Positions 754 through 29,312 of a stretch of 29,312 nucleotides of DNA are shown piece after piece. Origin of the DNA: a virus (lineage: Duplodnaviria; Heunggongvirae; Uroviricota; Caudoviricetes). The stretch is from positions 1 through 29,312 of IMG/VR virus record IMGVR_UViG_2778261593_000009, one strand, 5' to 3'. Made by a program: the position numbers and the translations under genes. Under the pieces are notes generated by a model. That model was not told the DNA's origin, did no database searches, and was given only the letters and a program-made list of their open reading frames with translations. Position 1 is the first letter of the stretch; each line of letters starts with the position of its first letter.

Positions 754-1143
754 TCAGATTCCCTCCCAATCTATATATCCTTTATCTCTTGCCCAACGAA
801 CAACTGTGTGAGCTGTATATGTGGATGTGAAGCCGCAATAAGAACATGACACTTCATACCGGAAATTGTAGATGCTAATGGGGCCGTTCTCCTTACGTAT
901 GGGAGTGACATATTCCCAATCATTTGAATCATCAAGTTCAGGATCAGTGCCGTGAACAACCGTATGTGGAACAAATAGATCTGGGCGTCCACACGAGAGA
1001 CAAGAGGTTTTAGCACCTCTATCTGTGAGAAATTGAATAAATAATTTGGGCGTAATTTTCTGCAAGACCTGCACATGCTCACGTTCCTTATCATTAAGAG
1101 GCCTGCCAAGATATAGAAAATCATCAAATTTAAGAGGCTTCAT
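754..1143 (-). CDS. Hypothetical protein with two CxxC motifs (putative zinc ribbon); function unknown
   Basis: Track ORF 754-1158; start placed at MKPLKFDD, preceded by GGAGAAG; CLSCG and CSYCG motifs; start overlaps the 3' end of int by about 14 nt, suggesting translational coupling. Confidence 0.55.
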   Translation of the reverse strand: MKPLKFDDFLYLGRPLNDKEREHVQVLQKITPKLFIQFLTDRGAKTSCLSCGRPDLFVPHTVVHGTDPELDDSNDWEYVTPIRKENGPISIYNFRYEVSCSYCGFTSTYTAHTVVRWARDKGYIDWEGI

Positions 1144-2122: not shown

Positions 2123-2171
2123 TCGTGAAACCCCAGCGTTACAAGACCACCATGCCCCCAGCGCTCCATGA

Positions 2172-2480
2172 TTAGCCGGGCTGTGTGCCAGTCTTGCGGG
2201 GTTTTTGAGAAGGCGATGTGCTTTTTGGCCCATCAGGGGAGAGAGACGGACTGATCTGCCCAGCAGCCTCATTTGTTTTTCCCGTCATAAGCCAATTCAT
2301 GTACTTAAAAAAGCGAGGGTGATTAACAATCTTGATAAGCACTTCGCCCCCTATGTTTTCAATCCGCCCCGTTTCATAACGACGCAAAGTGCCGATAGGC
2401 ACATCAATCAGGCCGCAAAATTCTTCGCGCGTTAAATCCTCTGATTCACGAATCACTCTAATTTTTTCACCGATAAGCAT
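2172..2480 (-). CDS. C: Immunity repressor, P2 C-like
   Basis: Position immediately upstream of int on the same strand; HTH region and C-terminal FFKYMNWLMTGKTNEAAGQISPSL resembling recalled P2 C; start taken at MLIGEKIRVI (track ORF begins at an upstream alternative start). Confidence 0.7.
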   Translation of the reverse strand: MLIGEKIRVIRESEDLTREEFCGLIDVPIGTLRRYETGRIENIGGEVLIKIVNHPRFFKYMNWLMTGKTNEAAGQISPSLSPDGPKSTSPSQKPRKTGTQPG

Positions 2481-9058: not shown

Positions 9059-10018
9059 ATGAAAATTTGTATCGACGACGGCTCCACCAACATCAAGCTG
9101 GCATGGACTGAGAACGGCGAACGCCGCAACGCCATCAGCCCGAACAGCTTCAAGTCGGAATGGTCAGCGCCGTTCGGTGGCACGCAGCCCGCGAACTACA
9201 TGCTTGATGGCGTGCGCTATGGTTTTGATCCGGTCAGCGATCGCTTTGTCCAGACGACCGACACGCAATACCAGTACAGCGATGTGAATGTTATTGCCAT
9301 TCATCATGCGCTGGTCAAATCAGGCATCACACCACAGGAGGTGGATGTGGTTGTCACCCTGCCACTGAGCGAGTATTTCGATACAAACGCACAGCCGGAC
9401 ATGGCCAACATCAGCCGCAAAAAAGCGAACGTTATGCGCCCGGTGGAGTACCAGAACGGCGAAGCATTCACTATCCGTAACGTGCGGGTTATGCCTGAAT
9501 CCATTCCGGCAGGCTTTAAAGCACTGGCTGACATGAGTCCGTTTGAATCCCTGCTGATTGTGGATTTGGGCGGAACCACGCTGGATGTGGCAAAGGTTCA
9601 GGGGCAACTGGCAGGTATCAGCCAGGTGTTTTGCGATCCACACGTAGGCGTTTCTCTGATGGCCGATGCCGTGCTGTCGGTGATGGCCACCAACGGTATG
9701 CGTACCAGTCACCACATCGCTAATACCATTATCGAACATCGCCACGATGAAGCCTGGCTGCGCCAGCACATCCACAATGACGCGCATTACGCCAGCCTGA
9801 TGGCAGTTATTCGTGAAAAGGAGGAAACACTGAAACAACGCGTGATCCGCGCGCTGGCGGGTTTTTCGGGTTACGGGCGGGTGATGGTTGTCGGTGGAGG
9901 GGCGGAGATTGTGGCACCCGCCATCCGCGAAGCCTGCGGAGTTAATGCGACTTTCATCGCGGACGGGGTGCCACAGTTTGCTCTGGTTAATGGGCTGTAC
10001 GCAATGGACAAGGAGTAA
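9059..10018 (+). CDS. parM: Actin-like segregation ATPase ParM (StbA)
   Basis: N-terminus MKICIDDGSTNIKLAW and motifs DVNVIAIHHAL, VMPESIPAG, LIVDLGGTTLD, FSGYGRVMVVGGGAE, LVNGLY closely parallel plasmid R1 ParM as I recall it. Confidence 0.85.
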   Translation: MKICIDDGSTNIKLAWTENGERRNAISPNSFKSEWSAPFGGTQPANYMLDGVRYGFDPVSDRFVQTTDTQYQYSDVNVIAIHHALVKSGITPQEVDVVVTLPLSEYFDTNAQPDMANISRKKANVMRPVEYQNGEAFTIRNVRVMPESIPAGFKALADMSPFESLLIVDLGGTTLDVAKVQGQLAGISQVFCDPHVGVSLMADAVLSVMATNGMRTSHHIANTIIEHRHDEAWLRQHIHNDAHYASLMAVIREKEETLKQRVIRALAGFSGYGRVMVVGGGAEIVAPAIREACGVNATFIADGVPQFALVNGLYAMDKE

Positions 10019-18559: not shown

Positions 18560-19269
18560 CGCGCCCCGTGATTAACGAGTCACAACTCCGGCAGGTTCGC
18601 CGCGCCATCAGAGAGGCAGAGCTTCCGCCGGCAAAGGCCAGAAAGCTGCTGGTTCGCATTGCGAAATACGGCCTGATACCGGCTGCACGACGCAATGTGA
18701 AAGCACAGCGAACACCGGAGGGGGTAGCCTGGGCACCACGAAAAAGACCGGATAAAGCCAGCGGCAGGTATAAAAACAAAATGCTGCTGGGGCTGCCGAA
18801 GCTGCTGGCCATCAGGGTTGACGGCAGCGGGAAAAGTGTCCGCCTTTTCTTCAAAAAAGGGGATTACAACACCGGCTCTCATGGTGGGGCGGTCGCGTGG
18901 GTGCAACAGCACGGCGCAACCATCAAAAGCCGCGCCACAAAACGCCGGGACAGCGAAGCCATGCGCACCCGTCCCGCCACACGACGGCAGGCAGAACGCC
19001 TTCTTTCTCTGGGCTTTCGCGCCCCCGTCGGCGCAGTCAGCAAAAAAACCGGACGCAGAGGACGCAGAAAGCCTTCTCTGAAATGGATTATGGAAAACAT
19101 GAGTATGGCGCAGGCCGGACTGGTGATCAGCATTCTGAAAGGCGAGCAGAAAAAACGTGTATGGGAAATCAAAATCCCCTCCCGCGCATTTCTGGGAGCC
19201 AGCGATGCTGAATTTGCCCGCATTCTGGAAGCGCAGCTGCGCAGCCTGCATTACGGCGGCACGAGATAA
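18556..19269 (+). CDS. Virion morphogenesis / tail completion protein, gpS-like
   Basis: ATGA overlap with the upstream gene; basic C-terminal region; synteny. Confidence 0.45.
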   Translation: MTRPVINESQLRQVRRAIREAELPPAKARKLLVRIAKYGLIPAARRNVKAQRTPEGVAWAPRKRPDKASGRYKNKMLLGLPKLLAIRVDGSGKSVRLFFKKGDYNTGSHGGAVAWVQQHGATIKSRATKRRDSEAMRTRPATRRQAERLLSLGFRAPVGAVSKKTGRRGRRKPSLKWIMENMSMAQAGLVISILKGEQKKRVWEIKIPSRAFLGASDAEFARILEAQLRSLHYGGTR

Positions 19270-19288
19270 CAAAATCAGGAGACAAATT

Positions 19289-20437
19289 ATGACCTGGCCA
19301 TCTGTCACAATTGAACAGTACAACACGTTCAGTAGCTCGCCGGACGGCGTGGAAAATACGCTGCTGTTTGTGGGCAATGCACAAAACAACAAAGGTAAGG
19401 TTCTGCCGGTTAATGCCAACAGCGATCTGGATGAACTGCTGGGAACAAACGCCAGCCCGCTGAAGAACTTCCTTCGGTCTGCGCTGACCAATGCCGGACA
19501 GAATGCCTTTTTCTATGTTGCCGTTCTGCCGGAAGCCGGCAAAGGCAAAGAAGCGACGCCAGCCTGCCAGGTATGGCAGAACGCCATACTGGCGGCTCAG
19601 GAAACTGTTTCAGTTGAAGGCGTGGTGATCACCGAACCGGTCAGCACGAAGGATGACATCAACGCCATACAGGCGTTACGTCAGACCATCATCAATAAAT
19701 ATCAGCGCCGCATCTGGTTCATTCTGACCATTGCCGCCAATAACGGCAGCAAAACCTGGGCAGATTACGTTGCTGAACTGACCACGCTACAGGAAGGCAT
19801 CGCCGCCCCGCAAATCATGCTGGTTCCGGAAATTTTTGGATTTGAACCGGGCGTTCTTGCCGGCCGTCTGTGTAACAGCGCCGTCACCATTGCTGATAGT
19901 CCGGCGCGTGTGGCAACCGGAGCGCTGTCCGCACTGAAGACCACGGAACGCCCGAAAGACAGCGCAGGGCAGGCAATTGATCTCGACACTCTGCAGGCAC
20001 TGGCAACCGCCCGCTACAGCGTGCCCATGTGGTATGCCGACTATGACGGCCTTTACTGGGCTGACGGTGTAACACTTGAGGTGGAAGGCGGGGACTACAA
20101 CGTCATTGAGCATGTCCGCATTGCTGATAAGGTGGCGCGCCGCGTGCGGCTGATGGCCATCCCCAAGATTGCCGACCGCTCGCTGAACAGCACGCCGGGC
20201 AGCATTGCCGCACATGAAACGCTGTTTGCCCGCCCACTGCGTGCCATGGCGAAATCCATGCAAATTAACGGCATCACGTTTCCGGGCGAAGTGAAATCGC
20301 CCCGGAAAGGCGACGTAGTTATCACCTGGCAGGACGAAAAGACGGTCAGCATCAGCATTGTCGTCCGCCCTTACGCCTGCCCTAAAACCATCAAAGTGGG
20401 CATTCAGCTGGATAAATCTCTGGAGGAAAACGCATGA
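19289..20437 (+). CDS. Tail sheath-like structural protein
   Basis: 382 aa from MTWPSVTIEQ (AGGAG SD); followed by an overlapping about 150-aa gene, as in sheath/tube pairs. Confidence 0.45.
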   Translation: MTWPSVTIEQYNTFSSSPDGVENTLLFVGNAQNNKGKVLPVNANSDLDELLGTNASPLKNFLRSALTNAGQNAFFYVAVLPEAGKGKEATPACQVWQNAILAAQETVSVEGVVITEPVSTKDDINAIQALRQTIINKYQRRIWFILTIAANNGSKTWADYVAELTTLQEGIAAPQIMLVPEIFGFEPGVLAGRLCNSAVTIADSPARVATGALSALKTTERPKDSAGQAIDLDTLQALATARYSVPMWYADYDGLYWADGVTLEVEGGDYNVIEHVRIADKVARRVRLMAIPKIADRSLNSTPGSIAAHETLFARPLRAMAKSMQINGITFPGEVKSPRKGDVVITWQDEKTVSISIVVRPYACPKTIKVGIQLDKSLEENA

Positions 20438-20889
20438 CGACCCGCATTAACGGCATGGCGTTTGACACTTTTATCGGTGGAACGGATATCCATGTGAAAA
20501 GCATCTCACTGGACATCAGCGATGAAAGCGCCGTTGCCAAAACCCGTGGCATCCCTGACGGCAAACTGCGCGGCCCTGTCAGTGCCGAAGGTGAAATCGA
20601 AATGAGTACCCGCAGCTTTAACCAGCTCGGGGAAGTGGCTGCTCAGGCGGGATCGTGGCGTGACCTGCCGCCAATGGATTTTGTGTTTTACGCCAATACG
20701 GGAACCGAAGAAATCCGCGTTGAAGCCTTCGGTTGTGAGCTGATGCTTTCCGGCCTGTTAAGCATTGACACCGAGAGCGCAGATCTGACCACGCACAAAA
20801 TCAAGTACGTGGTGGCAAGCCCTGACTTTGTGCGTATCAACGGCGTGCCCGTTCTCTCAGAGAACGACGTGCGCGGACTGATGGGGTGA
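20434..20889 (+). CDS. Tail tube-like structural protein
   Basis: 151 aa; ATGA overlap with the upstream gene. Confidence 0.4.
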   Translation: MTTRINGMAFDTFIGGTDIHVKSISLDISDESAVAKTRGIPDGKLRGPVSAEGEIEMSTRSFNQLGEVAAQAGSWRDLPPMDFVFYANTGTEEIRVEAFGCELMLSGLLSIDTESADLTTHKIKYVVASPDFVRINGVPVLSENDVRGLMG

Positions 20890-20892
20890 ATC

Positions 20893-21189
20893 ATGCAGGA
20901 GCATGAGCGCACCATTATCACTCTGGGCATTCTGGGCGGAATCGCTGCCGCAAGTCGGGTGCTGGCTGGCGCAGAGCCGATTACGTTGCGGTTGTTTGTG
21001 GGCCGAACCCTGCTGGGGAGCGCGCTGGGTGTTTCTGCCGCTGCCCTGCTGGTTCGCTACCCGAACCTTGACCCACTGGCCATTGCCGGCGCAGGCACCG
21101 CAATGGGCGTTGCCGGTTACCAGATTGTTGAAATCTTCCTGCGTCATATGCGCCGGAAGCTGGGCGAGAAAGAGAACAAAGAGGAGTAA
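20893..21189 (+). CDS. Holin
   Basis: 98 aa with three hydrophobic segments and a highly charged C-terminus (RRKLGEKENKEE); lies upstream of the endolysin. Confidence 0.55.
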   Translation: MQEHERTIITLGILGGIAAASRVLAGAEPITLRLFVGRTLLGSALGVSAAALLVRYPNLDPLAIAGAGTAMGVAGYQIVEIFLRHMRRKLGEKENKEE

Positions 21190-21298
21190 CAGCAATGCTG
21201 TCCCGCAGGGAACAAAAAGCTGCCGCCATTGCCTGGAAAATTATCCGGGCACTGTGGCACTGGCTGCACAAACCTCAACAACCCCGTAAGGAGCAAAA

Positions 21299-21640
21299 AT
21301 GAAACTCTCTGATAAACAACAAAAATTTACCGTCATGATCGGAAAACTCATCCAGTTTGCCCATCAGCGCGGTTATGGCCTGACGTTCGGTGAAGCGTAC
21401 CGCACGCCAGAACAGGCAAAACTCAACGCACAAAAGGGATCAGGCATTGCCAACAGCCTGCACTGTCAGCGGCTGGCCGTGGATTTTAACCTGTTTATTA
21501 ACGGTGAATATCAGACCCGCACAGAGGCCTACCGCGAGCTGGGCGAGTACTGGGAATCCCTTGGTGGCGCATGGGGCGGTCGTTTTAAAAACCGCCCGGA
21601 TGGCAATCATTTCAGCCTTGAGCACGACGGCGTGCGCTGA
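21299..21640 (+). CDS. Endolysin, small zinc peptidase of the M15 type
   Basis: Motifs SLHCQRLAVDFNL and GNHFSLEH consistent with the H-x6-D ... H zinc-binding pattern. Confidence 0.6.
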   Translation: MKLSDKQQKFTVMIGKLIQFAHQRGYGLTFGEAYRTPEQAKLNAQKGSGIANSLHCQRLAVDFNLFINGEYQTRTEAYRELGEYWESLGGAWGGRFKNRPDGNHFSLEHDGVR

Positions 21641-21704
21641 TTTTACGCTTAATAAGCCTTCCTGCAGGCTTATTAAGCCCTCTTATTCTTGACTTTAAAA
21701 GGAA

Positions 21705-21998
21705 ATGATGATGAACGATAAAAACACCCAGACTACCGCAGAGAACACCATCACTTTGCAGGTCGGCGAGCATGAACTGACGTTTATCCCGACCGTTAAA
21801 GCCTACAACGATCTGCAGAACGACTTCATGCCGGATAACAAAATCGCGCCGCTGAAAAACTACCTGCGCCGCATCGTGATTAAAGAGCACCGCGATCTGC
21901 TGAACCAGTTGCTGGAAAAACCAGGAATGCCGGCCAGCCTGGCAACAGCCGTGAATAACGAGTTTGTGCCGGAAGTGGAAATCACCGTAAAAAAATAA
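21705..21998 (+). CDS. Tail assembly chaperone (gpE/lambda G-like), short form
   Basis: 97-aa gene directly upstream of the tape measure gene; ends at a slippery A-run. Confidence 0.6.
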   Translation: MMMNDKNTQTTAENTITLQVGEHELTFIPTVKAYNDLQNDFMPDNKIAPLKNYLRRIVIKEHRDLLNQLLEKPGMPASLATAVNNEFVPEVEITVKK

Positions 21999-22186
21999 AA
22001 AGCCATCTGGGGGCCATTGATCGCAATGACCTTACCCGGATGCTGATCCTGCGCCGCCACTGGCTGCCCGGCGAGGATGACTCGCCGCAGTCACTGGCTG
22101 CCGCCGTCTGGCTGGATAACCACTACTGGGAAAATATGAGCATCGCCGTCAATAACGGCATTATCCGTGCTTTTAAGGGATCGTAA
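21705..22186 (+). CDS. Tail assembly chaperone long form, made by a programmed -1 frameshift (gpE+E'/G-T-like)
   Basis: Heptamer A_AAA_AAA at 21989-21995; the -1 frame is open from there to a TAA overlapping the tape measure ATG at 22186 (extension KKIKSHLGAIDR...AFKGS). Confidence 0.55.
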
Positions 22187-24282
22187 TGTCACAACAGCGC
22201 CTTGAATTACTTCTTGAACTGACAGACCGCCTGACAAGGCCGTTGCGTGCAGCCGGGCGACAGGTTCAGGGATTTGCTGCAACAAGTCGGGGAGCCTTTC
22301 GGGACATTGCTACCGGAGGCGCTGCGCTCTGGGGAGTGGGTGCAGCCATTCAGGGGGCACTGATGCCAGCCATTGAAATGGACAGGGCGCTCGGTGAGGT
22401 GAAATCACTGGGCGTCGCAGAGTCCGGATTGCGTAAACTCAGCCGCGCCGCCGTTGATTTCACTATGGAATACGGCGGGGCTGCGCAGGATTTTGTGCGT
22501 GCTTCTTACGACATCCAGTCAGCCATTGCCGGGTTAACTGACGATGAGCTGTCCCGCTTCACCACCGCATCAGCAACGGTGGCAGCAGCAACCAAATCCA
22601 GCAGCCAGACCATTACCGCCTACATGGGCACCATGTACGGCATCTTTAAAGACCAGGCTGATGCCATGGGAAAAAGCAAATGGGTGGAGCAGGTCGCCGG
22701 GCAAACCGCCACCGCCGTGCAAATGTTTAAAACAACCGGCGATAACATGTCAGCAGCGTTCACCACGCTGGGTGCCAGTGCAAAAGCGGCCGGTATTGAT
22801 GCGGCTGAACAGTTCGCCGTGCTGGGACAACTACAGGCCACAATGAGTGGCAGCGAGGCCGGGACAAAATACAAGGCATTTCTTGCCGCAGTAGGCAGCG
22901 CCCAGAAAAAGCTGGGGCTTAATTTCGTGAATAAAGACGGCACGATGAAAAGTGTTGTCGAGATCATGAAACTTATCAGGGGTAAATTTGGTGATCTGTC
23001 AAAAGTGGCTGATTCCGATTTGCTGAAAAGCGCCTTTGGCTCCGATGAAGCTGTGGCCATGATTAAATTACTCAATGCGGACATTGGCGGACTTGAAAAG
23101 AATATCGCCACGCTGGGCAATATCAAAGGTATGGATAAGGCTGTCGAAATGGCGCAGGCCATGGCTGATCCATGGGAACAGGCCGCCGCAATTATTAACG
23201 GCATTCGCATCGAAATCGGCACGCAGTTGCTGCCTGTTCTGTACCCGTTTATCCAGAAAAGCAACGAAGGCGGTAAATCCTTTGTTGCCTGGTTACGTCT
23301 GTATCCCAATATCACACGGGCTATTGGTTTACTGTCTGCCGCCCTGCTGGGCATTGCCGCAGTGGGTGCCGTTGTCAACATTATGGTGGGTGTGGCGAAG
23401 TTTGTCTGGACAGGACTGCGGCTGGTCTGGCTGGCAGCAGTTGCACCCCTGAAGATTCTCATTCTGCTGAAACGCACACTGACGGCTACCATGTGGGCGT
23501 TCACTGTAGTTGCCCGAACGGTCAGGGCGCTGTATCTGGCCATGTCCATTGCTATGGGAACATACAACGTCAAAGCAAAAATTCAGCTGGCGCTGCTGAA
23601 ATTACAGCGCGCCGGACTCTGGCTTTATTCTGTTGCGCTGGGTGCCGCCGGCATAGCAATGAAAATCTACACCGCAGTCACCAGCGGAGCTGCAATTGCA
23701 ACACAGTTACTTTTCAGCCCCATCACATTAATCATCCTGGCACTGGCTGCGCTGGGCGTGGGCATTTATTTCCTGATCACCCGCTGGGATGAGATTAAAG
23801 CCGCGCTGATGGATACCGCCGCCTTTCAGTGGGTGGCTGAAATGGTCGGCAGTATGGGGGCATGGTTCGGCAATGCATGGAACACAATCCAGGACGGCTG
23901 GAATGCACTGGTTAACTATTTTTCCACGCATTCACCTCTGGACGCCCTGAAGGATATCGCCGGCGGCATCCTGAACATTTTCAGTAACCTCTGGGAACTG
24001 GTGAAACAGTCCTTCAGTGATTCATGGGGCTGGATTGTAGGCAAGCTCAACATGATCCCCGGCGTCAATATCGACACACCGGAAAGCACAGGAAGTGGCG
24101 AAGGCTCCGTATTAACCGGCGGCAAAGCCATCAGTGCGGGACCGGGCGGCATTGCGGCAGAGATGCAGAACAACAGCGAAAACCAGACCACCATCGACAA
24201 CTCCCGTCGTGTGGTTAACGTCAATGTGCAGGATCCATCCCCTGCCCGTCTTAACGAGTGGATGGAGCTGCATGCATACTGA
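22186..24282 (+). CDS. Tail tape measure protein
   Basis: 698 aa; helical N-terminal part and a long hydrophobic, Ala/Gly/Leu-rich central region typical of tape measure proteins. Confidence 0.8.
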   Translation: MSQQRLELLLELTDRLTRPLRAAGRQVQGFAATSRGAFRDIATGGAALWGVGAAIQGALMPAIEMDRALGEVKSLGVAESGLRKLSRAAVDFTMEYGGAAQDFVRASYDIQSAIAGLTDDELSRFTTASATVAAATKSSSQTITAYMGTMYGIFKDQADAMGKSKWVEQVAGQTATAVQMFKTTGDNMSAAFTTLGASAKAAGIDAAEQFAVLGQLQATMSGSEAGTKYKAFLAAVGSAQKKLGLNFVNKDGTMKSVVEIMKLIRGKFGDLSKVADSDLLKSAFGSDEAVAMIKLLNADIGGLEKNIATLGNIKGMDKAVEMAQAMADPWEQAAAIINGIRIEIGTQLLPVLYPFIQKSNEGGKSFVAWLRLYPNITRAIGLLSAALLGIAAVGAVVNIMVGVAKFVWTGLRLVWLAAVAPLKILILLKRTLTATMWAFTVVARTVRALYLAMSIAMGTYNVKAKIQLALLKLQRAGLWLYSVALGAAGIAMKIYTAVTSGAAIATQLLFSPITLIILALAALGVGIYFLITRWDEIKAALMDTAAFQWVAEMVGSMGAWFGNAWNTIQDGWNALVNYFSTHSPLDALKDIAGGILNIFSNLWELVKQSFSDSWGWIVGKLNMIPGVNIDTPESTGSGEGSVLTGGKAISAGPGGIAAEMQNNSENQTTIDNSRRVVNVNVQDPSPARLNEWMELHAY

Positions 24283-24622
24283 TAAACCGCTTTACATTGA
24301 TTTGCTCATCACCGGCCGCAATCTCACGCTGAACAGCGCCAGTGAGCCGGTGTTATGCAACAACAGGGAAAGTATTGCCCAGGACTGCCAGCACGCCATC
24401 ATTGAGAGCGGACTGGCAACGCGCCTGCTGGCTGAAAAAAGCCCGACACTTCGTGCTGACATCATGATGCAGATGACGCTGCTGATTGAAGATGATGAGC
24501 GCATCACACCCGGCACGGTCAGTGTGACAGAAGAAACCCCGCTTTCTGGTCGCCTGCTGATTAGCGCCCACACCGAAGATTTTTTTGAACCCCTGACTTT
24601 TACGGTATCTCTTGATGATTAA
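24272..24622 (+). CDS. Putative baseplate wedge protein (gpW/Gp25-like)
   Basis: 116 aa from MHTDKPLYID; sits directly upstream of the J-like gene in the conserved W-J-I-H-G order. Confidence 0.4.
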   Translation: MHTDKPLYIDLLITGRNLTLNSASEPVLCNNRESIAQDCQHAIIESGLATRLLAEKSPTLRADIMMQMTLLIEDDERITPGTVSVTEETPLSGRLLISAHTEDFFEPLTFTVSLDD

Positions 24623-25799
24623 CGGCAAACCCACCGCAGATTACGAGCGCATTCTGGCTGATAACGGCATGCCGGTAACCGAAGAACAGGCACGCGCTGA
24701 ATTTGAAGCCATTGTCAAAGACGAAGGGCTTATCACCAACACATCCCGCATGTCGCCGTTCTGGCGACTGATTACAGCTATCACCACAAAACCCGTGATG
24801 TGGCTGAAAGATGCGCTGGTTAATGTGGTGATGAAAAACCTGTTTCTGGCTGATGCCAGCGGTGTATTCGTTGATGTTTTTGCCTGGGCGGTAAACCTGC
24901 AACGCAAGGCCGCCACGCACGCAGCCGGCGTGATTCGTTTCACCAAAAACGACATTGATCGCGCAGTTACCGTGCCGGCCGGTACGCAGATTCAGACAGA
25001 ACGCATTAACGGCGTGATTTATACGCTGACCGTTGTCAGGGATACCGTTATTCCGGCAGGAACACTCAGCATGAACATCGATGTTTCTGCAGAACAGGCC
25101 GGAGCCGGCTTTAACCTTGCGCCGGGATATTACCGCATCCTTCCGGTGGCGATTGATGGTATTGCCGGTGTTGAGAACGATGAAAACTGGCTGACCACAC
25201 CGGGTGCCAACGAAGAAAGCGATGACGAGCTGCGTGATCGTGTTCGTAATCAGTTTAATCTTGCCGGCGCTTATCACACCGATGCCGTTTACCGGGGATT
25301 AATTGCCGGCGTTGCCGGCATCAGTGCCGACCGCATCTATTTTCTGCATGACGCACCACGCGGCCCCGGCACAGCAAATGCTTACATTCTGCTGGATACC
25401 GGCATCGCATCCGAACCGTTCGTTGATGCAGTAAACGCATTCATTAACGATGAAGGTCATCACGGACACGGTGATGATCTGCGCTGTTTTTCCATGCCTG
25501 AAACACGCCACACCCTGACCGTGACACTCTGGTTATATGCAACGCTGAACCTCAGCGATGAGGAAATTCAGACGTTATTGCGCAATGTGGAAAATCTGGT
25601 TCGCTGTGCATTTCGAGAAAACAGCGATTATGACGTTCAGAAAACATGGCCGTATAGCCGTTTCAGCATGTCCAGACTGGGCGAAGAGATCCACCAGGTA
25701 TTTCCACAGGTGGAGTCGGTTACATTTTCTCTTCCGGATATTCTCAGTGATCTGGCTGTTCCTCGTCTGGAATCCCTTACTGTGGAGGTGAGCGCATGA
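24615..25799 (+). CDS. Baseplate J-like protein
   Basis: 394 aa; synteny upstream of the I-like and tail fibre genes. Confidence 0.7.
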   Translation: MINGKPTADYERILADNGMPVTEEQARAEFEAIVKDEGLITNTSRMSPFWRLITAITTKPVMWLKDALVNVVMKNLFLADASGVFVDVFAWAVNLQRKAATHAAGVIRFTKNDIDRAVTVPAGTQIQTERINGVIYTLTVVRDTVIPAGTLSMNIDVSAEQAGAGFNLAPGYYRILPVAIDGIAGVENDENWLTTPGANEESDDELRDRVRNQFNLAGAYHTDAVYRGLIAGVAGISADRIYFLHDAPRGPGTANAYILLDTGIASEPFVDAVNAFINDEGHHGHGDDLRCFSMPETRHTLTVTLWLYATLNLSDEEIQTLLRNVENLVRCAFRENSDYDVQKTWPYSRFSMSRLGEEIHQVFPQVESVTFSLPDILSDLAVPRLESLTVEVSA

Positions 25800-26431
25800 A
25801 ACTTCCGGAGATCCCTGAATTCCCGCTCCCCACCTGGATGAATAAAGGTGAGCCGTTAACGCTGGCACATTCATCGCATCGCTACTGGGAAAAGGTATAC
25901 AGCTGGCTGACGTGGCCACTACAGCAGATTGATGTCGACACCTGCGCAGAGCCTTTACTTAACCTGCTGGCTTATCAGCGCAATATCACCCGATTTAAAG
26001 GTGAGCCGGTTTCATTATTTCGCTTAAGAGTGAAACACGCGTTTATTAACGCTCAGGACTCTGGCGAACGCGCCGGCTTCGAACGCATCTTTAAGCGTCT
26101 TGGCGTGGGAGACGTTAAAACACTGGAACGGCAACTGCAGCATGACTGGGACGTTATTTTACTGCGCATTAATGACACCCAGTTAAGTGAAAACAACGCG
26201 CTGATGATGCAGCTCGTGCGCCAGTATGGTCGTACCTGCAGGCGCTATTTCTTTCAGGTAATCAATACAACCACTGCCCGGATGACAGCCGGCACATTCG
26301 ATGGCCATTACAGGTATCACACAGCAGAAGCAACGGTGAGAAAGGACACCATCTGGTTAACCGCTTCGCTACAGGCAGGACATTACGGCCTGTCCGTGGA
26401 ACATTACACATTACAGGCAGATGAAGCATGA
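25796..26431 (+). CDS. Tail protein I-like (baseplate)
   Basis: 211 aa; ATGA overlaps with both neighbours; synteny. Confidence 0.6.
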   Translation: MKLPEIPEFPLPTWMNKGEPLTLAHSSHRYWEKVYSWLTWPLQQIDVDTCAEPLLNLLAYQRNITRFKGEPVSLFRLRVKHAFINAQDSGERAGFERIFKRLGVGDVKTLERQLQHDWDVILLRINDTQLSENNALMMQLVRQYGRTCRRYFFQVINTTTARMTAGTFDGHYRYHTAEATVRKDTIWLTASLQAGHYGLSVEHYTLQADEA

Positions 26432-28128
26432 GCACGATTATTACTGAACAGTACGAACACTGGTGCGCAAATCAAATCATCAGCGGAAAAGCTGCGCGCC
26501 CGGATACATTTGTTTTTGCATATATTCCGGGACAGGATGAATCCGCAGAGATCCCCCGCGATGAGATACTCCCTGATGAATCCATGATTCAGTATCGTGC
26601 GCCGGTCACCCAGTACGGCCTCCTGTCGCCGAACGCGACCGCGTTTTCCATCATTCTGGACACGACAGTCGGCGACTTCGAATACAACTGGATCGGTCTG
26701 CTGAACGAAGAAAGCGGCGTGCTCTGCATGATTGCACACACACCTCGTCAGCAAAAAATTAAAACAGCGAACGGCGTGCAGGGAAACAACCTGATCCGCA
26801 CATTTTCCATGGAGTTTGACGGCGCAGCCGCAGCAATGCATATCGATGTCAGCGCTGATGTCTGGCAGATTGATTTCACTGCACGCCTTGCAGGAATGGA
26901 TGAGGCCCGCCGGCTGCTGGCGTTTGATCACTACGGTGAAGCCGCTTTTCTGGGGGATGGTTTTCAGGTCAGCTATCAGGACGGTACCGCTACTGTTGCC
27001 GCCGGCGTGGGGTATGTGGGAGGTCTGCGCGTCAGTCTGCGCGAACCTTACAGCCTGCCGGCTGCGGTCGGGGATACCCTCTGGATTGATGCAAGCTGGC
27101 AGGGATTTGTTACCGGCGAATGGAATACCGTTTTTACGTTCTGCGCCCGCCAGGAACATGCGTCTTATACAGACGGTAACGGCTTCCGACACTTTGTCGC
27201 GCCACTTGCAAAAATGACAGGAGACGGCCCACAGGACCTGCGCCCGGAGACACCCGACGAAGAACAAAGCAATGCACTGGCAGAGCACGAAAAATCCCGC
27301 CATCATCCGGACGCAACACTGAAGGAGAAAGGCTTTGCGCAGTACAGCAACGCCACCGACAGCGACGCAGAAGACCGCGCCGCCACATCAAAGGCAGTAA
27401 AAGCCGCAATGGATAAAGCAAAAGACGCTGTTGAGCGCGACGGCGACACCATGACCGGGGAGCTGAAAATCCGTGGTGTTAATGCACTGAGGATTTTCAA
27501 CGAAGCTTTTGGCCTGATTTTTCGTCGTTCTGAAGAGTGCCTGCATCTTATTCCCACCCGGGAAAATCAGGGCGAAAATGGCGATATTGGTCCCCTGCGT
27601 CCGTTCACTATTAATCTGCGGACGGGTGAAATATCCATGTCGCATAAAGTGTCTGTTGGTGGCGGTTCTCAGGTGAATGGTGCGCTGGGTATCGGCGTTC
27701 AGAACGCGCTGGGTGGAAACTCAATTGCTTTTGGGGATAACGATACCGGCCTGAAACAGAATGGTGATGGCCTGCTGGATGTTTATGCCAATAGCGTGCA
27801 TGTGTTGCGTTTTCAGGCTGGCAGTATCCAGAGTAATAAACCTGTAAACGTTACCGGGCGGGTAACACCGTCAGACTACGGAAACTTTGATGCCCGTTAC
27901 CAGACCAAAACAGGCGGAGTGCAGGATGTGCGTTATGGTTCCGAAATGTATTACAACCCGGGAGGTAACCAGATATCCTGGACATTTCGCTCACCTTCAG
28001 GCCATGGATTATCTGGTATTAATGTGCAGGAAACCGGAAGTGATTCGGCAGATAACATCGGCGGCGTGTATTACCGACCGCTTCAGAAACTGATTAACGG
28101 CACCTGGTATAACGTGGCGAGTGTTTAA
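26428..28128 (+). CDS. Tail fibre protein, P2 gpH-like
   Basis: Segment AEHEKSRHHPDATLKEKGFAQYSNATDSDAEDRAATSKAVKAAMDKA matches the conserved motif of P2 H/Mu S-type fibres. Confidence 0.85.
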   Translation: MSTIITEQYEHWCANQIISGKAARPDTFVFAYIPGQDESAEIPRDEILPDESMIQYRAPVTQYGLLSPNATAFSIILDTTVGDFEYNWIGLLNEESGVLCMIAHTPRQQKIKTANGVQGNNLIRTFSMEFDGAAAAMHIDVSADVWQIDFTARLAGMDEARRLLAFDHYGEAAFLGDGFQVSYQDGTATVAAGVGYVGGLRVSLREPYSLPAAVGDTLWIDASWQGFVTGEWNTVFTFCARQEHASYTDGNGFRHFVAPLAKMTGDGPQDLRPETPDEEQSNALAEHEKSRHHPDATLKEKGFAQYSNATDSDAEDRAATSKAVKAAMDKAKDAVERDGDTMTGELKIRGVNALRIFNEAFGLIFRRSEECLHLIPTRENQGENGDIGPLRPFTINLRTGEISMSHKVSVGGGSQVNGALGIGVQNALGGNSIAFGDNDTGLKQNGDGLLDVYANSVHVLRFQAGSIQSNKPVNVTGRVTPSDYGNFDARYQTKTGGVQDVRYGSEMYYNPGGNQISWTFRSPSGHGLSGINVQETGSDSADNIGGVYYRPLQKLINGTWYNVASV

Positions 28129-28130
28129 CA

Positions 28131-28682
28131 ATGTTGCATTTAAAAAATATTACTGCGGGTAATCCGAAAACCGCGGAACAATATCAGCTGACAAAACAAT
28201 ATGGTGTCACCTGGCTTTTTTCGGAAGACGGCAAAAACTGGTATGAAGAACAGAAGAACTTTGCCAGTGACACCATAAAAATGGTTTACACCGGAGACGG
28301 GCGCGTGGTGTGGGTCGGTAAGGATGTGACAGGTATTGAACCACGTAACGCCAGTGTTATTGAAGTTCCTGATATTACCGCTAACCGCCGCATTACCGCA
28401 CCGGGTTACTGGTTCTACCGCAATGATGAATTTGTTTTTGACTACAAACTTAAAGCGGAAGATGAGCGTGATGCACTGTTAAAACAGGCCAGCATCATGA
28501 CCAGCGAATGGGAAAAAGACCTGCTGCTGGGATTAATCAGCGACGAAGACAGGGAAAAACTGAAAGCCTGCCGTATTTATACAAAAACGTTACGGGAGAT
28601 GACATTCAGCCAGGTTACAGATAAAGCATCGTATGCCGCGATTGTATGGCCAGAATTACCGCAGAACATTAGCGAGAATTAA
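28131..28682 (+). CDS. Tail fibre assembly protein (Tfa, gpG-like)
   Basis: 183 aa directly downstream of the fibre gene; C-terminal AAIVWPELP motif typical of Tfa chaperones. Confidence 0.8.
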   Translation: MLHLKNITAGNPKTAEQYQLTKQYGVTWLFSEDGKNWYEEQKNFASDTIKMVYTGDGRVVWVGKDVTGIEPRNASVIEVPDITANRRITAPGYWFYRNDEFVFDYKLKAEDERDALLKQASIMTSEWEKDLLLGLISDEDREKLKACRIYTKTLREMTFSQVTDKASYAAIVWPELPQNISEN

Positions 28683-28688
28683 GAAGTA

Positions 28689-29312
28689 ATGAGCGCATTA
28701 TTGACGAAAGCATTTGAAAAGTGGGTTGCTGAATGCGCAGCCAGCAATTTACCTGCACGCCCTGACGCTATTATTTTTGCTCTGATGGAGCGGGAACCAA
28801 CGCGCGAAGATAATACCGTTCCGGAAGAAAAAATCACATATGCTGTGAATGAACTGACCTACGGCCAGTTAAGCCCGGACAATATTGTGTGTAGCGCAGT
28901 TGTTCCTGATGACTGTGCATTCAGCTATGACTGGATTTGTCTCATCCATCAGGCCAGCGGAACACTATGCGGCGTAATAAAAACGCCTGTTCGACAAAAA
29001 GTGACAGGCGAGTCACTTATTCGTAATTTCACGATTATATACAGCGGCATTGCTCAGGCTGCGCAAATTACCGTTCCTCCACAGAGCTGGCAGATAGATC
29101 TTTATCCAGAGCTGATATCAATGCTGAAAACCCCTAACCGTTTGTCAGAAATTGCAGCAGAAGGGAAAGAAGCGCAACAGGAATCCCGCGACAATCTGGG
29201 GTTGAAAACTGCTGCAACGATGGATGTACAAACAGACATTTACGACCGTACCGAAGGCCGCCTGGCAATACCCGGTGCATTCGGATACGGAGCTATCTTC
29301 CGCTCAGAAAAA
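28689..29312 (+). CDS. Second tail fibre protein, N-terminal part (truncated by window end)
   Basis: N-terminus MSALLTKAFEKWVAECAASNLPARPDAIIFALME parallels that of the first fibre (MSTIITEQYEHWCANQIISGKAARPDTFVFAYIP); open to the window end. Confidence 0.65.
   Translation, partial: MSALLTKAFEKWVAECAASNLPARPDAIIFALMEREPTREDNTVPEEKITYAVNELTYGQLSPDNIVCSAVVPDDCAFSYDWICLIHQASGTLCGVIKTPVRQKVTGESLIRNFTIIYSGIAQAAQITVPPQSWQIDLYPELISMLKTPNRLSEIAAEGKEAQQESRDNLGLKTAATMDVQTDIYDRTEGRLAIPGAFGYGAIFRSEK

What the first reader, a model, noticed from the sequence alone, without database searches (positions are those of the whole stretch)
26428..29312. Two tandem tail fibre genes with related N-termini, separated by a Tfa gene
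The second fibre gene begins 7 nt after the Tfa gene in the same orientation. Its N-terminal region parallels that of the first fibre and then appears to diverge. Two co-oriented fibres, rather than an invertible segment, would give dual receptor specificity; the distal domain lies outside the window.
Basis: seen in the sequence. Interest (0 to 1): 0.4.

Follow-up and report, generated by a model that had tools for sequence, protein, structure and literature searches.

The report
Prophage with two tandem tail fibres
The window ends inside a real, intact second tail-fibre gene of an E. coli P2/HP1-like prophage, so this phage encodes two different host-recognition fibres, each with its own helper protein; this is a tidy but fairly ordinary way for a virus to recognise more than one receptor.

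Summary
Fibre 1 (26428-28128, 566 aa), a Tfa chaperone (28131-28682) and, 6 nt later, fibre 2 (28689 to the window end, 208 codons) lie co-oriented. The two fibres share only their N-terminal PF12571 domain (36% identity over 160 aa, E=1e-25).

Contigs 99.9% identical to the window continue the sequence. Fibre 2 is an intact 416-aa gene, followed by a DUF4376 chaperone-type gene, three baseplate genes, hok, and then the chromosome. There is no invertase and no flanking inverted repeats.

- Fibre 1 has a phage Mu S-like tip.
- Fibre 2 has almost no shaft and a two-domain tip whose best structural neighbours are phage and pyocin receptor-binding proteins. At DNA level, 222 nt of that tip are 95-99% identical to fibres of unrelated prophages.
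- The fibre-2 anchor is under purifying selection (dN/dS 0.10-0.29) and forms a small, discrete paralogue clade.
- The same gene order occurs in Escherichia, Yersinia and Plesiomonas prophages. The described relatives examined in detail (ESSI2_ev239, vB_YenM_324) have one fibre, and no deposited phage shows a second match to this anchor.
- phiP27 has an analogous cassette, but with unrelated anchors.

Two fibres on one virion, giving dual specificity, is the likely reading, but it is inferred and not shown. Interest is modest.

The parts
24612..25799 (+). Baseplate J/gp47-like wedge protein (context: part of the baseplate, the presumed docking platform for the fibres)
   Evidence: PF04865 E=1.1e-31; 99-100% aa identity across the related loci whose fetched stretch includes it
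25796..26431 (+). gpI-like tail/baseplate protein, 211 aa; its stop overlaps the fibre 1 ATG
   Evidence: PF09684 Tail_P2_I E=6.5e-5; phrog_1228 'tail protein' E=6e-82
26428..28128 (+). Fibre 1, 566 aa, complete
   Evidence: ORF; PF12571, PF03406 and gp37_trimer hits; annotated as a tail fibre in relatives
26434..26898 (+). Fibre 1 N-terminal anchor domain (aa 3-157), F1-type PF12571, with 5- and 6-residue segments that fibre 2 lacks
   Evidence: PF12571 E=5e-29; alignment A4; 98-100% conserved across the Escherichia loci
27316..27432 (+). Fibre 1 'phage tail fibre repeat' (aa 297-335), a shaft/junction motif
   Evidence: PF03406 E=7.7e-14
27448..28122 (+). Fibre 1 distal receptor-binding region (aa 341-565), phage Mu S-like
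   Evidence: phmmer against PDB: 5yvq/9ki1 'Tail fiber protein S', E=1.8e-19, chain residues 267-503; 71% identity to phiP27 L54 over a 269-column alignment (fibre 1 aa 298-566)
28131..28682 (+). Tail fibre assembly protein (Tfa, U/gpG-like), 183 aa, cognate chaperone of fibre 1
   Evidence: PF02413 E=2.6e-22; phrog_136 E=2e-59; its identity tracks that of the fibre 1 tip across loci
28683..28688 (+). 6-nt spacer (GAAGTA). With the preceding TAA it reads TAAGAAG, a weak Shine-Dalgarno-like stretch. No + strand terminator-like or promoter-like site lies in or between the fibre and Tfa genes
   Evidence: Sequence; scan
28689..29312 (+). Fibre 2, first 208 of 416 codons; cut by the window end, not by a stop
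   Evidence: Translation; P0088 (416 aa) has these 208 residues at its N-terminus and is encoded on contigs 99.93-99.94% identical to the window
28695..29099 (+). Fibre 2 N-terminal anchor domain (aa 3-137), F2-type PF12571 paralogue
   Evidence: PF12571 E=9.1e-12; 36% identity to fibre 1; dN/dS 0.10-0.29 among 12 alleles; discrete clade
29124..29234 (+). Fibre 2 short linker (aa 146-182, ...NRLSEIAAEGKEAQQESRDNLGLKTAATMDVQT), shared with phiP27 L56
   Evidence: 57% identity to phiP27 L56 from this point on; 75-100% conserved among the loci that carry this fibre 2 type
29235..29312 (+). Start of the fibre 2 distal two-domain module (aa 183-208, the invariant motif YDR..G..A.PGAFG.G); the remaining 208 aa lie beyond the window
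   Evidence: Alignment A2 invariant columns; distal module model and fold matches

Best explanation
The region is the host-recognition end of the late (tail) operon of an integrated P2-head/HP1-tail peduovirus prophage of E. coli. It encodes two complete fibre systems in series: fibre 1 plus a PF02413 Tfa, then fibre 2 plus a DUF4376 chaperone-type gene.

Shown here:
- Both fibres start with a homologous PF12571 domain, in two old paralogous versions.
- Fibre 1 continues with a shaft and a Mu S-like tip.
- Fibre 2 (416 aa in near-identical prophages) has only a ~40-aa linker before a two-domain tip.
- The genes are co-oriented, 2-10 nt apart, with no promoter-like or + strand terminator-like site between or within them, no invertase gene and no flanking inverted repeats.
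- The fibre 2 anchor is under purifying selection, while its tip is swapped freely with other prophages.

Inferred: both genes are transcribed and translated together late in infection. Each trimer is folded by its own downstream chaperone. Each is plugged into the HP1-type baseplate by its PF12571 domain. The virion therefore carries a longer Mu S-type fibre and a short stubby fibre with a different tip. This would give constitutive recognition of two receptors, without a DNA-inversion switch.
For: Gene identities.

Extension:
- L019-L023 are 99.91-99.94% identical to the window over 8.6-10.6 kb. They show fibre 2 (416 aa), DUF4376 (190 aa, starting 10 nt after the stop), a 237-aa protein, HP1_ORF34 (PF25759), a 565-aa baseplate protein, hok, and then chromosomal genes.
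- P0088, the intact 416-aa protein, was read on 11 contigs.

Selection and conservation:
- Purifying selection: dN/dS is 0.10-0.29 for all 66 pairs of 12 alleles of fibre 2 codons 1-140, with dS up to about 2.
- Modularity: gpJ, gpI and the fibre 1 anchor are 98-100% conserved. The fibre 2 anchor is 71-98%. The fibre 2 tip is 32-37% in most loci, but 97% in an unrelated P2-like prophage whose fibre has a PF08400 N-terminus.
- The layout appears fixed. The gpI + fibre 1 anchor segment matches 46 of 5,426 complete E. coli genomes and the fibre 2 start also matches 46. Of the 30 accessions listed for fibre 2, 29 recur in the gpI list.
- The same order occurs in Yersinia enterocolitica, Y. kristensenii, Plesiomonas shigelloides and E. 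albertii.

Paralogy:
- The anchors form two clades. Fibre 2 types are 55-68% identical between genera, fibre 1 types are 74-78%, and across clades the figure is 30-38%. The single fibres of ESSI2_ev239 and vB_YenM_324 group with fibre 1.
- Among 1.84 billion representatives there are only 19 fibre-2-type hits (E<=1e-30), then a gap to E~1e-20. The weaker hits have matched stretches about 12 residues longer, as in fibre 1.

Fibre 2 tip:
- The AF2 model has pLDDT 74.9.

Chaperone and anchor roles from the literature:
- V22 gp27, the tail-fibre chaperone required for host recognition, is listed with a DUF4376 domain (PMC7289586, PMC10579305).
- The DUF4376-bearing putative chaperone of the Campylobacter CJIE1 H-fibre had to be co-expressed for campycin 1 to bind and lyse (PMC11464564).
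- Residues 1-164 of R2 pyocin Prf15 have been fused to foreign fibre tips to retarget pyocins (PMC11464564).

No inversion system.
Against: - Nothing here shows that fibre 2 is in the virion or that the prophage is inducible.
- The docking site cannot be examined. No solved structure is detectably related to either anchor or to gpI, and gpJ has only one marginal hit (E=0.008).
- The full-length fibre 2 model was poor (pLDDT 50).
- A P2/HP1-type baseplate is usually described with one set of six fibres (my own knowledge), so room for a second set is an assumption.
- The fibre 2 anchor diverges faster than the baseplate proteins it is supposed to bind: 71% identity in E. albertii, where gpI and gpJ are 99-100%. 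That is not what tight co-evolution with that partner would predict.
- Fibre 2 is truncated in one decayed prophage remnant (L014) and IS1-clipped in another (L027).
Confidence: 0.7

Rival explanations
1. The two fibres compete for the same six baseplate sockets because their anchors are homologous. Individual virions would then carry random mixtures, or mostly one type, giving a population-level bet-hedge rather than a fixed 6+6 bivalent particle.
For: - Both anchors are PF12571 domains with 21 invariant columns shared across both clades.
- The single-fibre relatives examined have the same baseplate gene set, with no extra gene that could supply a second socket (compared with 72).
Against: - The anchors are only 30-38% identical and differ by two fixed indels that are conserved across three genera. 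That fits specialisation for different sites better than redundancy.
- Fibre 1 and fibre 2 anchors evolve at different rates.
Confidence: 0.25
2. Fibre 2 does not widen host range. It is a short secondary adhesin used in sequence with fibre 1 on the same host: the long fibre makes reversible first contact, and the short fibre then binds irreversibly near the membrane, as with the long and short fibres of T4.
For: - Fibre 2 has practically no shaft: a 145-aa anchor, a ~40-aa linker and a ~230-aa tip. Fibre 1 has a ~170-aa shaft region.
- Both genes are always present together in intact prophages.
Against: - The fibre 2 tip is the most variable and most horizontally exchanged part of the locus (32-37% identity between alleles; also found on PF08400-type fibres of other prophages). 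That is the signature of a primary specificity determinant.
- Variants of 404-683 aa exist, including one with a duplicated tip module, so the length is not fixed.
Confidence: 0.2
3. The second ORF is a decaying remnant of an old fibre duplication or an assembly artefact, and has no function.
For: - PGAP labels the homologous ORF as pseudogene fragments in several genomes.
- Most database homologues are 'partial'.
- L019 has a frameshift, L014 is truncated and L027 is clipped by IS1.
Against: - The ORFs labelled as pseudogenes are in fact uninterrupted (518-683 aa).
- The 'partial' records are at least partly contig ends: the two contigs carrying P0001 both stop inside the gene, and 222 nt of the tip module recur at 95-99% identity in other prophage fibres.
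- The intact 416-aa protein was read on 11 contigs.
- dN/dS is 0.10-0.29.
- The layout is conserved in Yersinia and Plesiomonas.
- The truncated copies sit in visibly decayed prophages.
Confidence: 0.03
4. The two fibres are alternative products of a switch (DNA inversion of the Gin/Cin type, or another programmed choice), so only one is made at a time.
For: Fibre 1 has a Mu S-like tip and a U-like Tfa. In Mu these belong to the invertible G segment (my own knowledge).
Against: - Both genes are complete, each with its own start and anchor, and lie on the same strand.
- No recombinase other than the phage integrase at 1130-2272 is seen among the window ORFs scanned, and none is called in the 99.9%-identical extension up to the prophage end.
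- The inverted repeats are only 16-28 nt at 70-88% complementarity, in positions that do not bracket a cassette.
- No promoter-like site was found in 24000-29312.
Confidence: 0.02

Closest known systems
Stx2e phage phiP27 tail-fibre cassette L54-L55-L56-L57 (NC_003356)
   Same: - Same order: fibre, PF02413-type Tfa, second fibre, small downstream gene.
- Fibre 1 is 71% identical to L54 over a 269-column alignment (fibre 1 aa 298-566); the Tfa is 71% identical to L55.
- The fibre 2 linker and the start of its tip are 57% identical to L56 over 143 aa; the full tip module is 36% identical; the window-lineage DUF4376 protein is 86% identical to L57.
   Different: - In phiP27 the two fibres have unrelated N-termini.
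- The N-terminus of L56 reads as a PF08400 'prophage tail fibre N-terminal' (Stf-type) start by eye; no domain scan was run on L56, and the PF08400 call was made on the related L008 fibre.
- L54 has a different short N-terminus.
- The phiP27 record annotates a different set of baseplate genes (DNA circularization, baseplate hub, wedge subunits).
- Here both fibres carry paralogous PF12571 anchors on an HP1-type baseplate.
Single-fibre HP1/ESSI-2-like peduoviruses (Escherichia phage ESSI2_ev239 = Evevirus; Yersinia phage vB_YenM_324; also HP1 and HP2)
   Same: Same tail module order: sheath, tube, lysis genes, TMP, DUF2590, gpJ, gpI, fibre, Tfa, three trailing baseplate genes. gpJ is 60-64% and the fibre anchor 48-50% identical to fibre 1.
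   Different: - ESSI2_ev239 and vB_YenM_324 have one fibre + Tfa pair; the fibre 2 + DUF4376 pair is absent.
- In 50,697 deposited phage records, no record has a second match to the fibre 2 anchor, and none matches it at more than about 32% identity.
Phage Mu S/U - S'/U' host-range system (invertible G segment) and related P1 and P2-family inversion systems
   Same: A Mu S-like receptor-binding tip (E=1.8e-19 to 5yvq) with a U/gpG-family chaperone. The idea of two alternative tips for one tail.
   Different: No invertase, no crossover repeats, no shared constant N-terminal exon. There are two complete co-oriented genes, so both are presumably made at once. The Mu inversion mechanism itself is cited from my own knowledge.
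R2 pyocin Prf15 and P2 gpH modular fibres
   Same: An N-terminal module kept constant plus an exchangeable C-terminal receptor-binding part that needs a downstream chaperone. Residues 1-164 of Prf15 have been fused to foreign tips to retarget pyocins (PMC11464564). The fibre 2 tip model has weak fold matches to R1/R2 pyocin fibre tips.
   Different: There is one fibre gene per tailocin or phage. Sequence relatedness of Prf15 or gpH to these anchors was not tested here.
Phages with two co-displayed receptor-binding proteins (T4 long and short fibres; T5-like DT57C LtfA/LtfB; K1-5/SP6 dual tailspikes)
   Same: Functional analogy: two adhesins encoded side by side and mounted together, for dual specificity or two-step binding.
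   Different: The proteins and attachment architectures are unrelated. Cited from my own knowledge and not tested here.

Membership tests
PF12571 tail-collar fibre N-terminal domain proteins (P2 gpH / HP1 orf31-type fibres) | N-terminal ~150-aa PF12571 domain above the Pfam gathering score (23 bits) | tested here: met
   Fibre 1 scores 101.7 bits (E=5e-29) and fibre 2 scores 45.6 bits (E=9.1e-12).
PF12571 tail-collar fibre N-terminal domain proteins (P2 gpH / HP1 orf31-type fibres) | Gene sits directly after the gpJ/gpI baseplate genes and is followed by a chaperone gene | tested here: met
   Fibre 1 follows gpI and is followed by a PF02413 Tfa. Fibre 2 is followed by a DUF4376 gene in the 99.9%-identical contigs.
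PF12571 tail-collar fibre N-terminal domain proteins (P2 gpH / HP1 orf31-type fibres) | N-terminal domain physically attaches the trimer to the baseplate | not testable with these tools
   No solved relative of the anchors or of gpI, and only one marginal hit (E=0.008) for gpJ. Inferred by analogy with the Prf15 1-164 fusions (PMC11464564).
Caudo_TAP (lambda gpK / Mu U / P2 gpG) tail fibre assembly proteins | PF02413 domain, small protein, encoded immediately downstream of its fibre | tested here: met
   79.8 bits, E=2.6e-22; 183 aa; starts 2 nt after the fibre 1 stop. Identity tracks that of the fibre 1 tip across loci.
DUF4376 tail-fibre chaperones (Alteromonas V22 gp27, Campylobacter CJIE1 type) | DUF4376 (PF14301) domain protein encoded directly downstream of the fibre it serves | tested here: met
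   Outside the window. L019-L023 have a 190-aa PF14301 gene starting 10 nt after the fibre 2 stop. PF14301 scores E=6.8e-15 in L007.
DUF4376 tail-fibre chaperones (Alteromonas V22 gp27, Campylobacter CJIE1 type) | Required for folding or activity of the fibre | not testable with these tools
   Shown experimentally only for distant members (PMC7289586, PMC11464564).
Invertible host-range switches (Mu Gin/G segment, P1 Cin/C segment and similar) | Serine invertase gene adjacent to the fibre genes | tested here: not met
   No recombinase apart from the tyrosine integrase at 1130-2272 is seen among the window ORFs scanned. None appears among the called genes of L019-L023 up to the chromosomal flank, or in the annotated relatives.
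Invertible host-range switches (Mu Gin/G segment, P1 Cin/C segment and similar) | Inverted crossover repeats bracketing alternative, oppositely oriented tip + chaperone cassettes | tested here: not met
   The best inverted repeats are 16-28 nt at 70-88% complementarity and do not bracket a cassette. All fibre and chaperone genes are on the + strand.
HP1/ESSI-2-like Peduoviridae (P2-type head, HP1-type tail) | Characteristic gene set and order: gpA replication, Q/P portal and terminase divergent from the O-N-M-L head genes, DUF2586 sheath, HP1_Orf24 tube, TMP, DUF2590, gpJ, gpI, fibre, HP1_ORF34, 565-aa baseplate protein | tested here: met
   The nearest deposited phages are only 65-73% nt identical over a third or less of the tail module.
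Functional (not pseudogenised) second fibre | Uninterrupted ORF, purifying selection, conservation of the layout | tested here: met
   The 416-aa ORF was read on 11 contigs. Intact ORFs of 404-683 aa occur in 9 of the 12 complete-genome or E. albertii loci read; the others are the 285-aa variant in L004 and L011 and a truncated copy in the remnant L014. dN/dS is 0.10-0.29. The same order occurs in three genera.
Functional (not pseudogenised) second fibre | Protein present in the virion and contributing to adsorption | not testable with these tools
   Needs induction, proteomics and genetics.

The most novel reading that the evidence does not exclude
The F2-type PF12571 anchor is a specialised paralogue: a tight clade of only 19 representative clusters, marked by two fixed deletions relative to the F1 type. 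On this reading it docks at a second, distinct site of the HP1-type baseplate, or onto fibre 1 itself. These prophages would then build a two-tier, constitutively bivalent P2-family baseplate. One tier would be six longer Mu S-type fibres. The other would be six stubby fibres whose two-domain tips are swapped with Stf-type fibres of other prophages. That architecture has not been described for peduoviruses, and it would replace the DNA-inversion switch used by Mu, P1 and some P2 relatives.
Probability: 0.35. Interest if true: 0.5.

Novelty: new variant of a known kind. Interest (0 to 1): 0.3.

Why it matters
- Phages with two receptor-binding proteins are well known, and phiP27 already shows the same cassette order. 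This is not a new principle.
- What is specific here is that a P2/HP1-family tail is normally described with one fibre set. This lineage carries two fibre genes with paralogous baseplate anchors, and the layout is fixed across Escherichia, Yersinia and Plesiomonas.
- If both fibres are mounted, the lineage offers a natural two-socket scaffold for retargeting peduoviruses or tailocins with two tips at once. It would also be a clean system for asking how a homologous anchor is assigned to a second baseplate site.
- Practical points: the second fibre is mis-annotated in several RefSeq genomes as pseudogene fragments, one of them named 'shikimate transporter'. It is also a point where draft assemblies break, so prophage host-range inventories probably under-count it.

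Tried and rejected
1. Extending the window with a genome-contig scan found only one locus, in E. albertii, at 70% identity. The extension came instead from exact-protein look-ups.
2. No complete E. coli RefSeq genome matches the last 22 nt of the window. The exact allele turned up only in draft assemblies.
3. The full-length fibre 2 AF2 model (P0060, 25-sequence alignment) had pLDDT 50.5 and I did not use it. Only the distal-module model (pLDDT 74.9) went to fold search.
4. Sequence searches of PDB found nothing for full-length fibre 2 (only chance-level Kunitz-domain hits, E>=0.08), for a profile of both anchor clades (0 hits) or for gpI, and one marginal hit for gpJ. The docking site therefore could not be modelled.
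5. I considered whether fibre 2 binds fibre 1 rather than the baseplate, because the cassette seemed shared with phiP27. I set this aside as unsupported: phiP27 L56 has a different N-terminus, so the anchor changes with the tail type. It is not excluded.
6. The invertible-segment idea was rejected.
7. Literature searches found nothing relevant: Peduoviridae + 'two tail fiber' gave 0 papers; P2-like + 'second tail fiber' gave 1 paper, which I did not read; the two 'two tail fiber genes' + prophage hits I opened matched only a cited title (Morita 2002).
8. No tRNA genes occur in the window.
9. The 300-aa minus-strand ORF at 26404-27306, which overlaps fibre 1, was treated as a chance ORF inside a coding region.

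Full report
**1. What is in the window**

ORF listing and translation give three co-oriented genes at the right end of the window:
- Fibre 1: 26428-28128, 566 aa. Its ATG overlaps the TGA of the upstream gene.
- A 183-aa gene: 28131-28682.
- Six nucleotides after its TAA (28680-28682), an ATG at 28689 whose frame stays open for 208 codons to the last base of the window.

Pfam assigns PF12571 ('tail-collar fibre protein, N-terminal') to both long ORFs (E=5e-29 and 9e-12), and PF02413 (Caudo_TAP) to the middle gene (E=2.6e-22). BLASTP between the two fibres gives 36% identity over 160 columns, E=1e-25, limited to fibre 1 aa 1-157 and fibre 2 aa 1-145.

**2. Context**

The window is the left ~29 kb of an integrated prophage, which runs on about 6 kb past the window end:
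- Tyrosine integrase at 1130-2272 (-).
- gpA replication protein at 6161-8983.
- A ParM segregation ATPase at 9059-10018.
- P2-type portal and terminase on the minus strand.
- An HP1-type tail: DUF2586 sheath, HP1_Orf24 tube, holin, M15 peptidase, tape measure at 22186-24282, DUF2590, gpJ at 24612-25799 and a gpI-like gene at 25796-26431.

The nearest deposited phages are ESSI-2-like Evevirus phages and Yersinia phage vB_YenM_324. They are only 65-73% nt identical over a third or less of the tail module. The scan for promoter-like sites found none in 24000-29312. The only + strand terminator-like sites (24857-25487) lie upstream inside the gpJ gene, and none lies in or between the fibre and Tfa genes. 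This fits one late transcript.

**3. Extending the sequence**

No complete E. coli genome matched through the window end. A protein search returned many 'partial' homologues, including a 260-aa one identical to the window fragment; both contigs read for it stop inside this gene. Part of the reason is visible: the 222 nt around and just beyond the window end are 95-99% identical to fibre genes of other prophages. That is a likely assembly breakpoint.

A search with the distal module then found complete proteins. P0088 is 416 aa, its first 208 residues are those of the window, and it was read on 11 contigs. Contigs L020-L023 are 99.93-99.94% identical to window 18689-29312 without gaps. L019 is 99.91% identical, with one extra T in a T-run that frameshifts its copy.

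In these contigs fibre 2 ends at codon 416. Ten nt later comes a 190-aa DUF4376 (PF14301) gene, and then:
- a 237-aa protein;
- HP1_ORF34 'baseplate complex protein' (PF25759, E=2.5e-53 in L001);
- a 565-aa baseplate protein (phrog_2258, E=2e-230);
- hok/gef;
- the chromosome (ihfA-pheT side, or flk side).

The second fibre is full length. It is followed by a chaperone-type gene of a different family from Tfa. No invertase follows.

**4. Anatomy of the two fibres**

*Fibre 1* has three parts: an anchor (aa 3-157); a shaft region with a PF03406 repeat (aa 297-335); and a tip (aa 341-565) homologous to the phage Mu S receptor-binding region (5yvq/9ki1, E=1.8e-19). It is 71% identical to phiP27 L54 over a 269-column alignment covering aa 298-566.

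*Fibre 2* has an anchor (aa 3-137), a ~40-aa linker, and a ~230-aa distal module that opens with the invariant motif YDR..G..A.PGAFG.G.
- The module has no Pfam family and no sequence relative in PDB.
- An AF2 model of a natural 239-aa protein that is 87% identical to the window lineage's module reached pLDDT 74.9. Its confident residues fall in two blocks (about 30-125 and about 150-239) joined by a lower-confidence stretch, and pTM is 0.48; I read this as two domains.
- This supports a receptor-binding role but does not identify a receptor.

**5. Comparative evidence that fibre 2 is functional**

I read thirteen related loci from complete E. coli genomes and E. albertii and extracted ORFs from twelve of them.
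- Nine of those twelve loci carry an uninterrupted fibre 2 ORF of 404-683 aa. This includes ORFs that PGAP annotates as two pseudogene pieces, the second oddly named 'shikimate transporter'.
- Two loci (L004, L011) carry a 285-aa variant, described under side observations.
- The truncated copies sit in decayed remnants: L014, which has lost the baseplate genes, and L027, which is clipped by IS1.
- For codons 1-140, all 66 pairs among 12 alleles give dN/dS of 0.10-0.29, with dS up to about 2.

A segment-by-segment identity table relative to the window lineage shows the classic anchor/tip pattern:

| Segment | aa identity across related loci |
|---|---|
| gpJ, gpI, fibre 1 anchor | 98-100% |
| Fibre 1 tip | 56-98% |
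| Tfa | 42-99%, tracking the fibre 1 tip |
| Fibre 2 anchor | 71-98% |
| Fibre 2 tip | 32-37% in most loci; 97% in an unrelated P2-like prophage |
| DUF4376 protein | 59-100% |

In that unrelated prophage (L008) the fibre starts with PF08400.

The gpI + fibre 1 anchor segment matches 46 of 5,426 complete E. coli genomes, and the fibre 2 start also matches 46. Of the 30 fibre 2 accessions listed, 29 recur in the gpI list. The layout therefore appears fixed in this lineage. The same order (fibre 1, Tfa, fibre 2, DUF4376, three baseplate genes) is found in Yersinia enterocolitica, Y. kristensenii and Plesiomonas shigelloides.

**6. The two anchors are old paralogues**

An alignment of eleven anchors has 21 invariant columns. 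It also shows two segments (5 and 6 residues) that are present in all fibre-1-type sequences and absent from all fibre-2-type ones.
- Identities: 55-68% within the fibre 2 clade between genera; 74-78% within fibre 1 types of the dual-fibre prophages; 30-38% between clades.
- The sole fibres of ESSI2_ev239 and vB_YenM_324 cluster with fibre 1 (45-50%).
- A full HMMER scan of 1.84 billion representatives found 580 relatives at E<=1e-3. Only 19 had E<=1e-30, all with fibre-2-type spacing. After a gap to E~1e-20, the matched stretches become about 12 residues longer, as in the fibre 1 type.
- In 50,697 deposited phage genomes the fibre 2 anchor matches 60 records, none at more than about 32% identity among those listed, and each at one place.

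Fibre 1 is therefore the counterpart of the single fibre of the described relatives. Fibre 2, with its DUF4376 partner, is an added system seen so far only in undescribed prophages. GC falls to 0.44-0.48 over the Tfa gene and fibre 2, against 0.50-0.59 around them. This is compatible with imported cassettes.

**7. Mechanism**

*Shown:*
- There are two complete fibre genes, each followed by a chaperone-type gene.
- All are co-oriented and tightly spaced, with no internal promoter-like or + strand terminator-like site.
- No invertase gene and no bracketing inverted repeats are present.
- The anchors are homologous but long diverged, and the tips are unrelated.
- The second anchor is under purifying selection, while its tip is exchanged rapidly.

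*From the literature:*
- Alteromonas phage V22 requires its chaperone gp27 for host recognition, and gp27 is listed with a DUF4376 domain.
- The DUF4376-bearing putative chaperone of the Campylobacter CJIE1 H-fibre had to be co-expressed for campycin 1 to bind and lyse (PMC7289586, PMC10579305, PMC11464564).
- Residues 1-164 of R2 pyocin Prf15 have been fused to foreign tips to retarget pyocins (PMC11464564).

*Inferred:* both fibres are made together, each is folded by its own chaperone, and both are mounted on the baseplate. The particle would then carry a longer Mu S-type fibre and a stubby fibre with a different tip, and so recognise two receptors without a switch.

Whether the two anchors use separate sites, compete for the same six sockets, or act in sequence on one host cannot be decided here. 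No solved structure is detectably related to the anchors or gpI. I rate the overall account at 0.7. The remnant and inversion rivals are at 0.03 or below.

**8. Relation to what is known**

- The closest published case is phiP27. Its L54-L55-L56-L57 cassette has the same order and homologous distal parts and chaperones, but unrelated N-termini, and its record annotates a different set of baseplate genes. This shows that the distal modules travel as cassettes and are re-fitted with whichever anchor suits the recipient tail.
- Mu, P1 and some P2 relatives obtain two specificities by DNA inversion. The defining features of such systems were tested here and not met.
- ESSI2_ev239 and vB_YenM_324 have a single fibre + Tfa pair at this position.
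- I found no paper describing a peduovirus with two PF12571 fibres. The search covers open-access texts only.

**9. Verdict**

It is a conserved, previously undescribed variant (two paralogous anchors on an HP1-type tail) of a well-known strategy (two receptor-binding proteins). Surprise value is modest. Its main worth lies in engineering bivalent fibres and in correcting annotation. Interest is 0.3.

**10. Side observations**

- The 683-aa fibre 2 variant (L001) contains the tip-module motif twice.
- In E. albertii and some E. coli, fibre 2 is only 285 aa and is followed by a 352-aa protein of unknown function (phrog_8291) instead of a DUF4376 gene.
- The prophage carries ParM.

Noticed in passing
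window 9059-10018 (+): A ParM actin-like plasmid-segregation ATPase (PF06406 + PF21523, E=4e-82 and 1e-68) lies inside a prophage that also has a tyrosine integrase (1130-2272, -) and P2 gpA. In one relative (L014) the ParM gene is followed by a gene annotated 'plasmid partitioning/stability family protein'. Partition genes in an integrating peduovirus are unusual.
   Followed up: no
L001 10262-12313; L002 10262-12307; L012 9262-11301; L018 4001-5557: PGAP annotates these uninterrupted fibre 2 ORFs (518-683 aa) as two pseudogene fragments. In L002, L012 and L018 the second fragment is named 'shikimate transporter'; in L001 it is 'phage tail protein'. The wrong name also appears on many partial nr entries (for example P0040, P0069, P0072, P0172). 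This looks like an annotation artefact.
   Followed up: partly
window 29235-29312 and beyond (L005 10560-10781): Many database homologues of fibre 2 are labelled 'partial'; the two contigs read for one of them stop inside the gene. The 222 nt around and just beyond the window end are 95-99% identical to fibre genes of other prophages (PF08400-type in the one I examined). This is a likely breakpoint for draft assemblies.
   Followed up: partly
L001 10262-12313 (683-aa fibre 2 variant): The YDR..PG.FG.G tip motif occurs twice (around aa 184-300 and again around aa 460-683), separated by a stretch that resembles shaft sequence in the PF08400-type fibre of L008 (by eye). This looks like an internal duplication of a receptor-binding module.
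   Followed up: no
L004 10001-11941 (E. albertii); L011 9262-11202 (E. coli MMC-J-0078): An alternative second-fibre design: a 285-aa protein with the F2-type anchor (about 70% identical to the window's), followed by a 352-aa protein of unknown function (phrog_8291, E=7e-221) instead of a DUF4376 gene. It may be a two-part fibre or an adaptor plus a separate adhesin.
   Followed up: partly
window 28769-28773 (T5 run) = L019 around 8061: Assembly GCA_030346325.1 has one extra T in this homopolymer run. This frameshifts the start of fibre 2 and gives a 408-aa gene call with an aberrant N-terminus (P0056). It is either a sequencing error or a genuine slip site.
   Followed up: partly
L020 9400-11000 (= window about 28100 to beyond the end): GC content drops to 0.44-0.48 across the Tfa gene and fibre 2, against 0.50-0.59 in the surrounding tail genes. 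This is compatible with horizontally imported host-range cassettes.
   Followed up: no
L019/L020 right prophage end; L001 16667-18427; L007 14646-16356: A Hok/Gef toxin gene sits at the right end of every relative that was read to its right end. Some also carry a Com-family regulator plus a DNA methyltransferase, reminiscent of Mu com-mom, before the chromosomal flank. The same prophage type is found next to several different chromosomal neighbourhoods (beside ihfA-pheT, flk, raiA and glsA).
   Followed up: no
L008 2371-5281 (E. coli STEC383): An unrelated P2-like prophage has, directly after its gpD-type 'late control protein' gene, a 773-aa PF08400-type fibre with two YDR..PGAFGYG tip modules. 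The second is 97% identical to the tip of this lineage's fibre 2. It is followed by a DUF4376 gene that is 96% identical. The tip and chaperone therefore appear to have moved together as one cassette between prophage types.
   Followed up: partly
window 26404-27306 (-): A 300-aa ATG ORF lies antisense to fibre 1 and is conserved as an ORF in relatives (L004, L007). I treated it as a by-product of the coding strand's composition rather than a gene.
   Followed up: no
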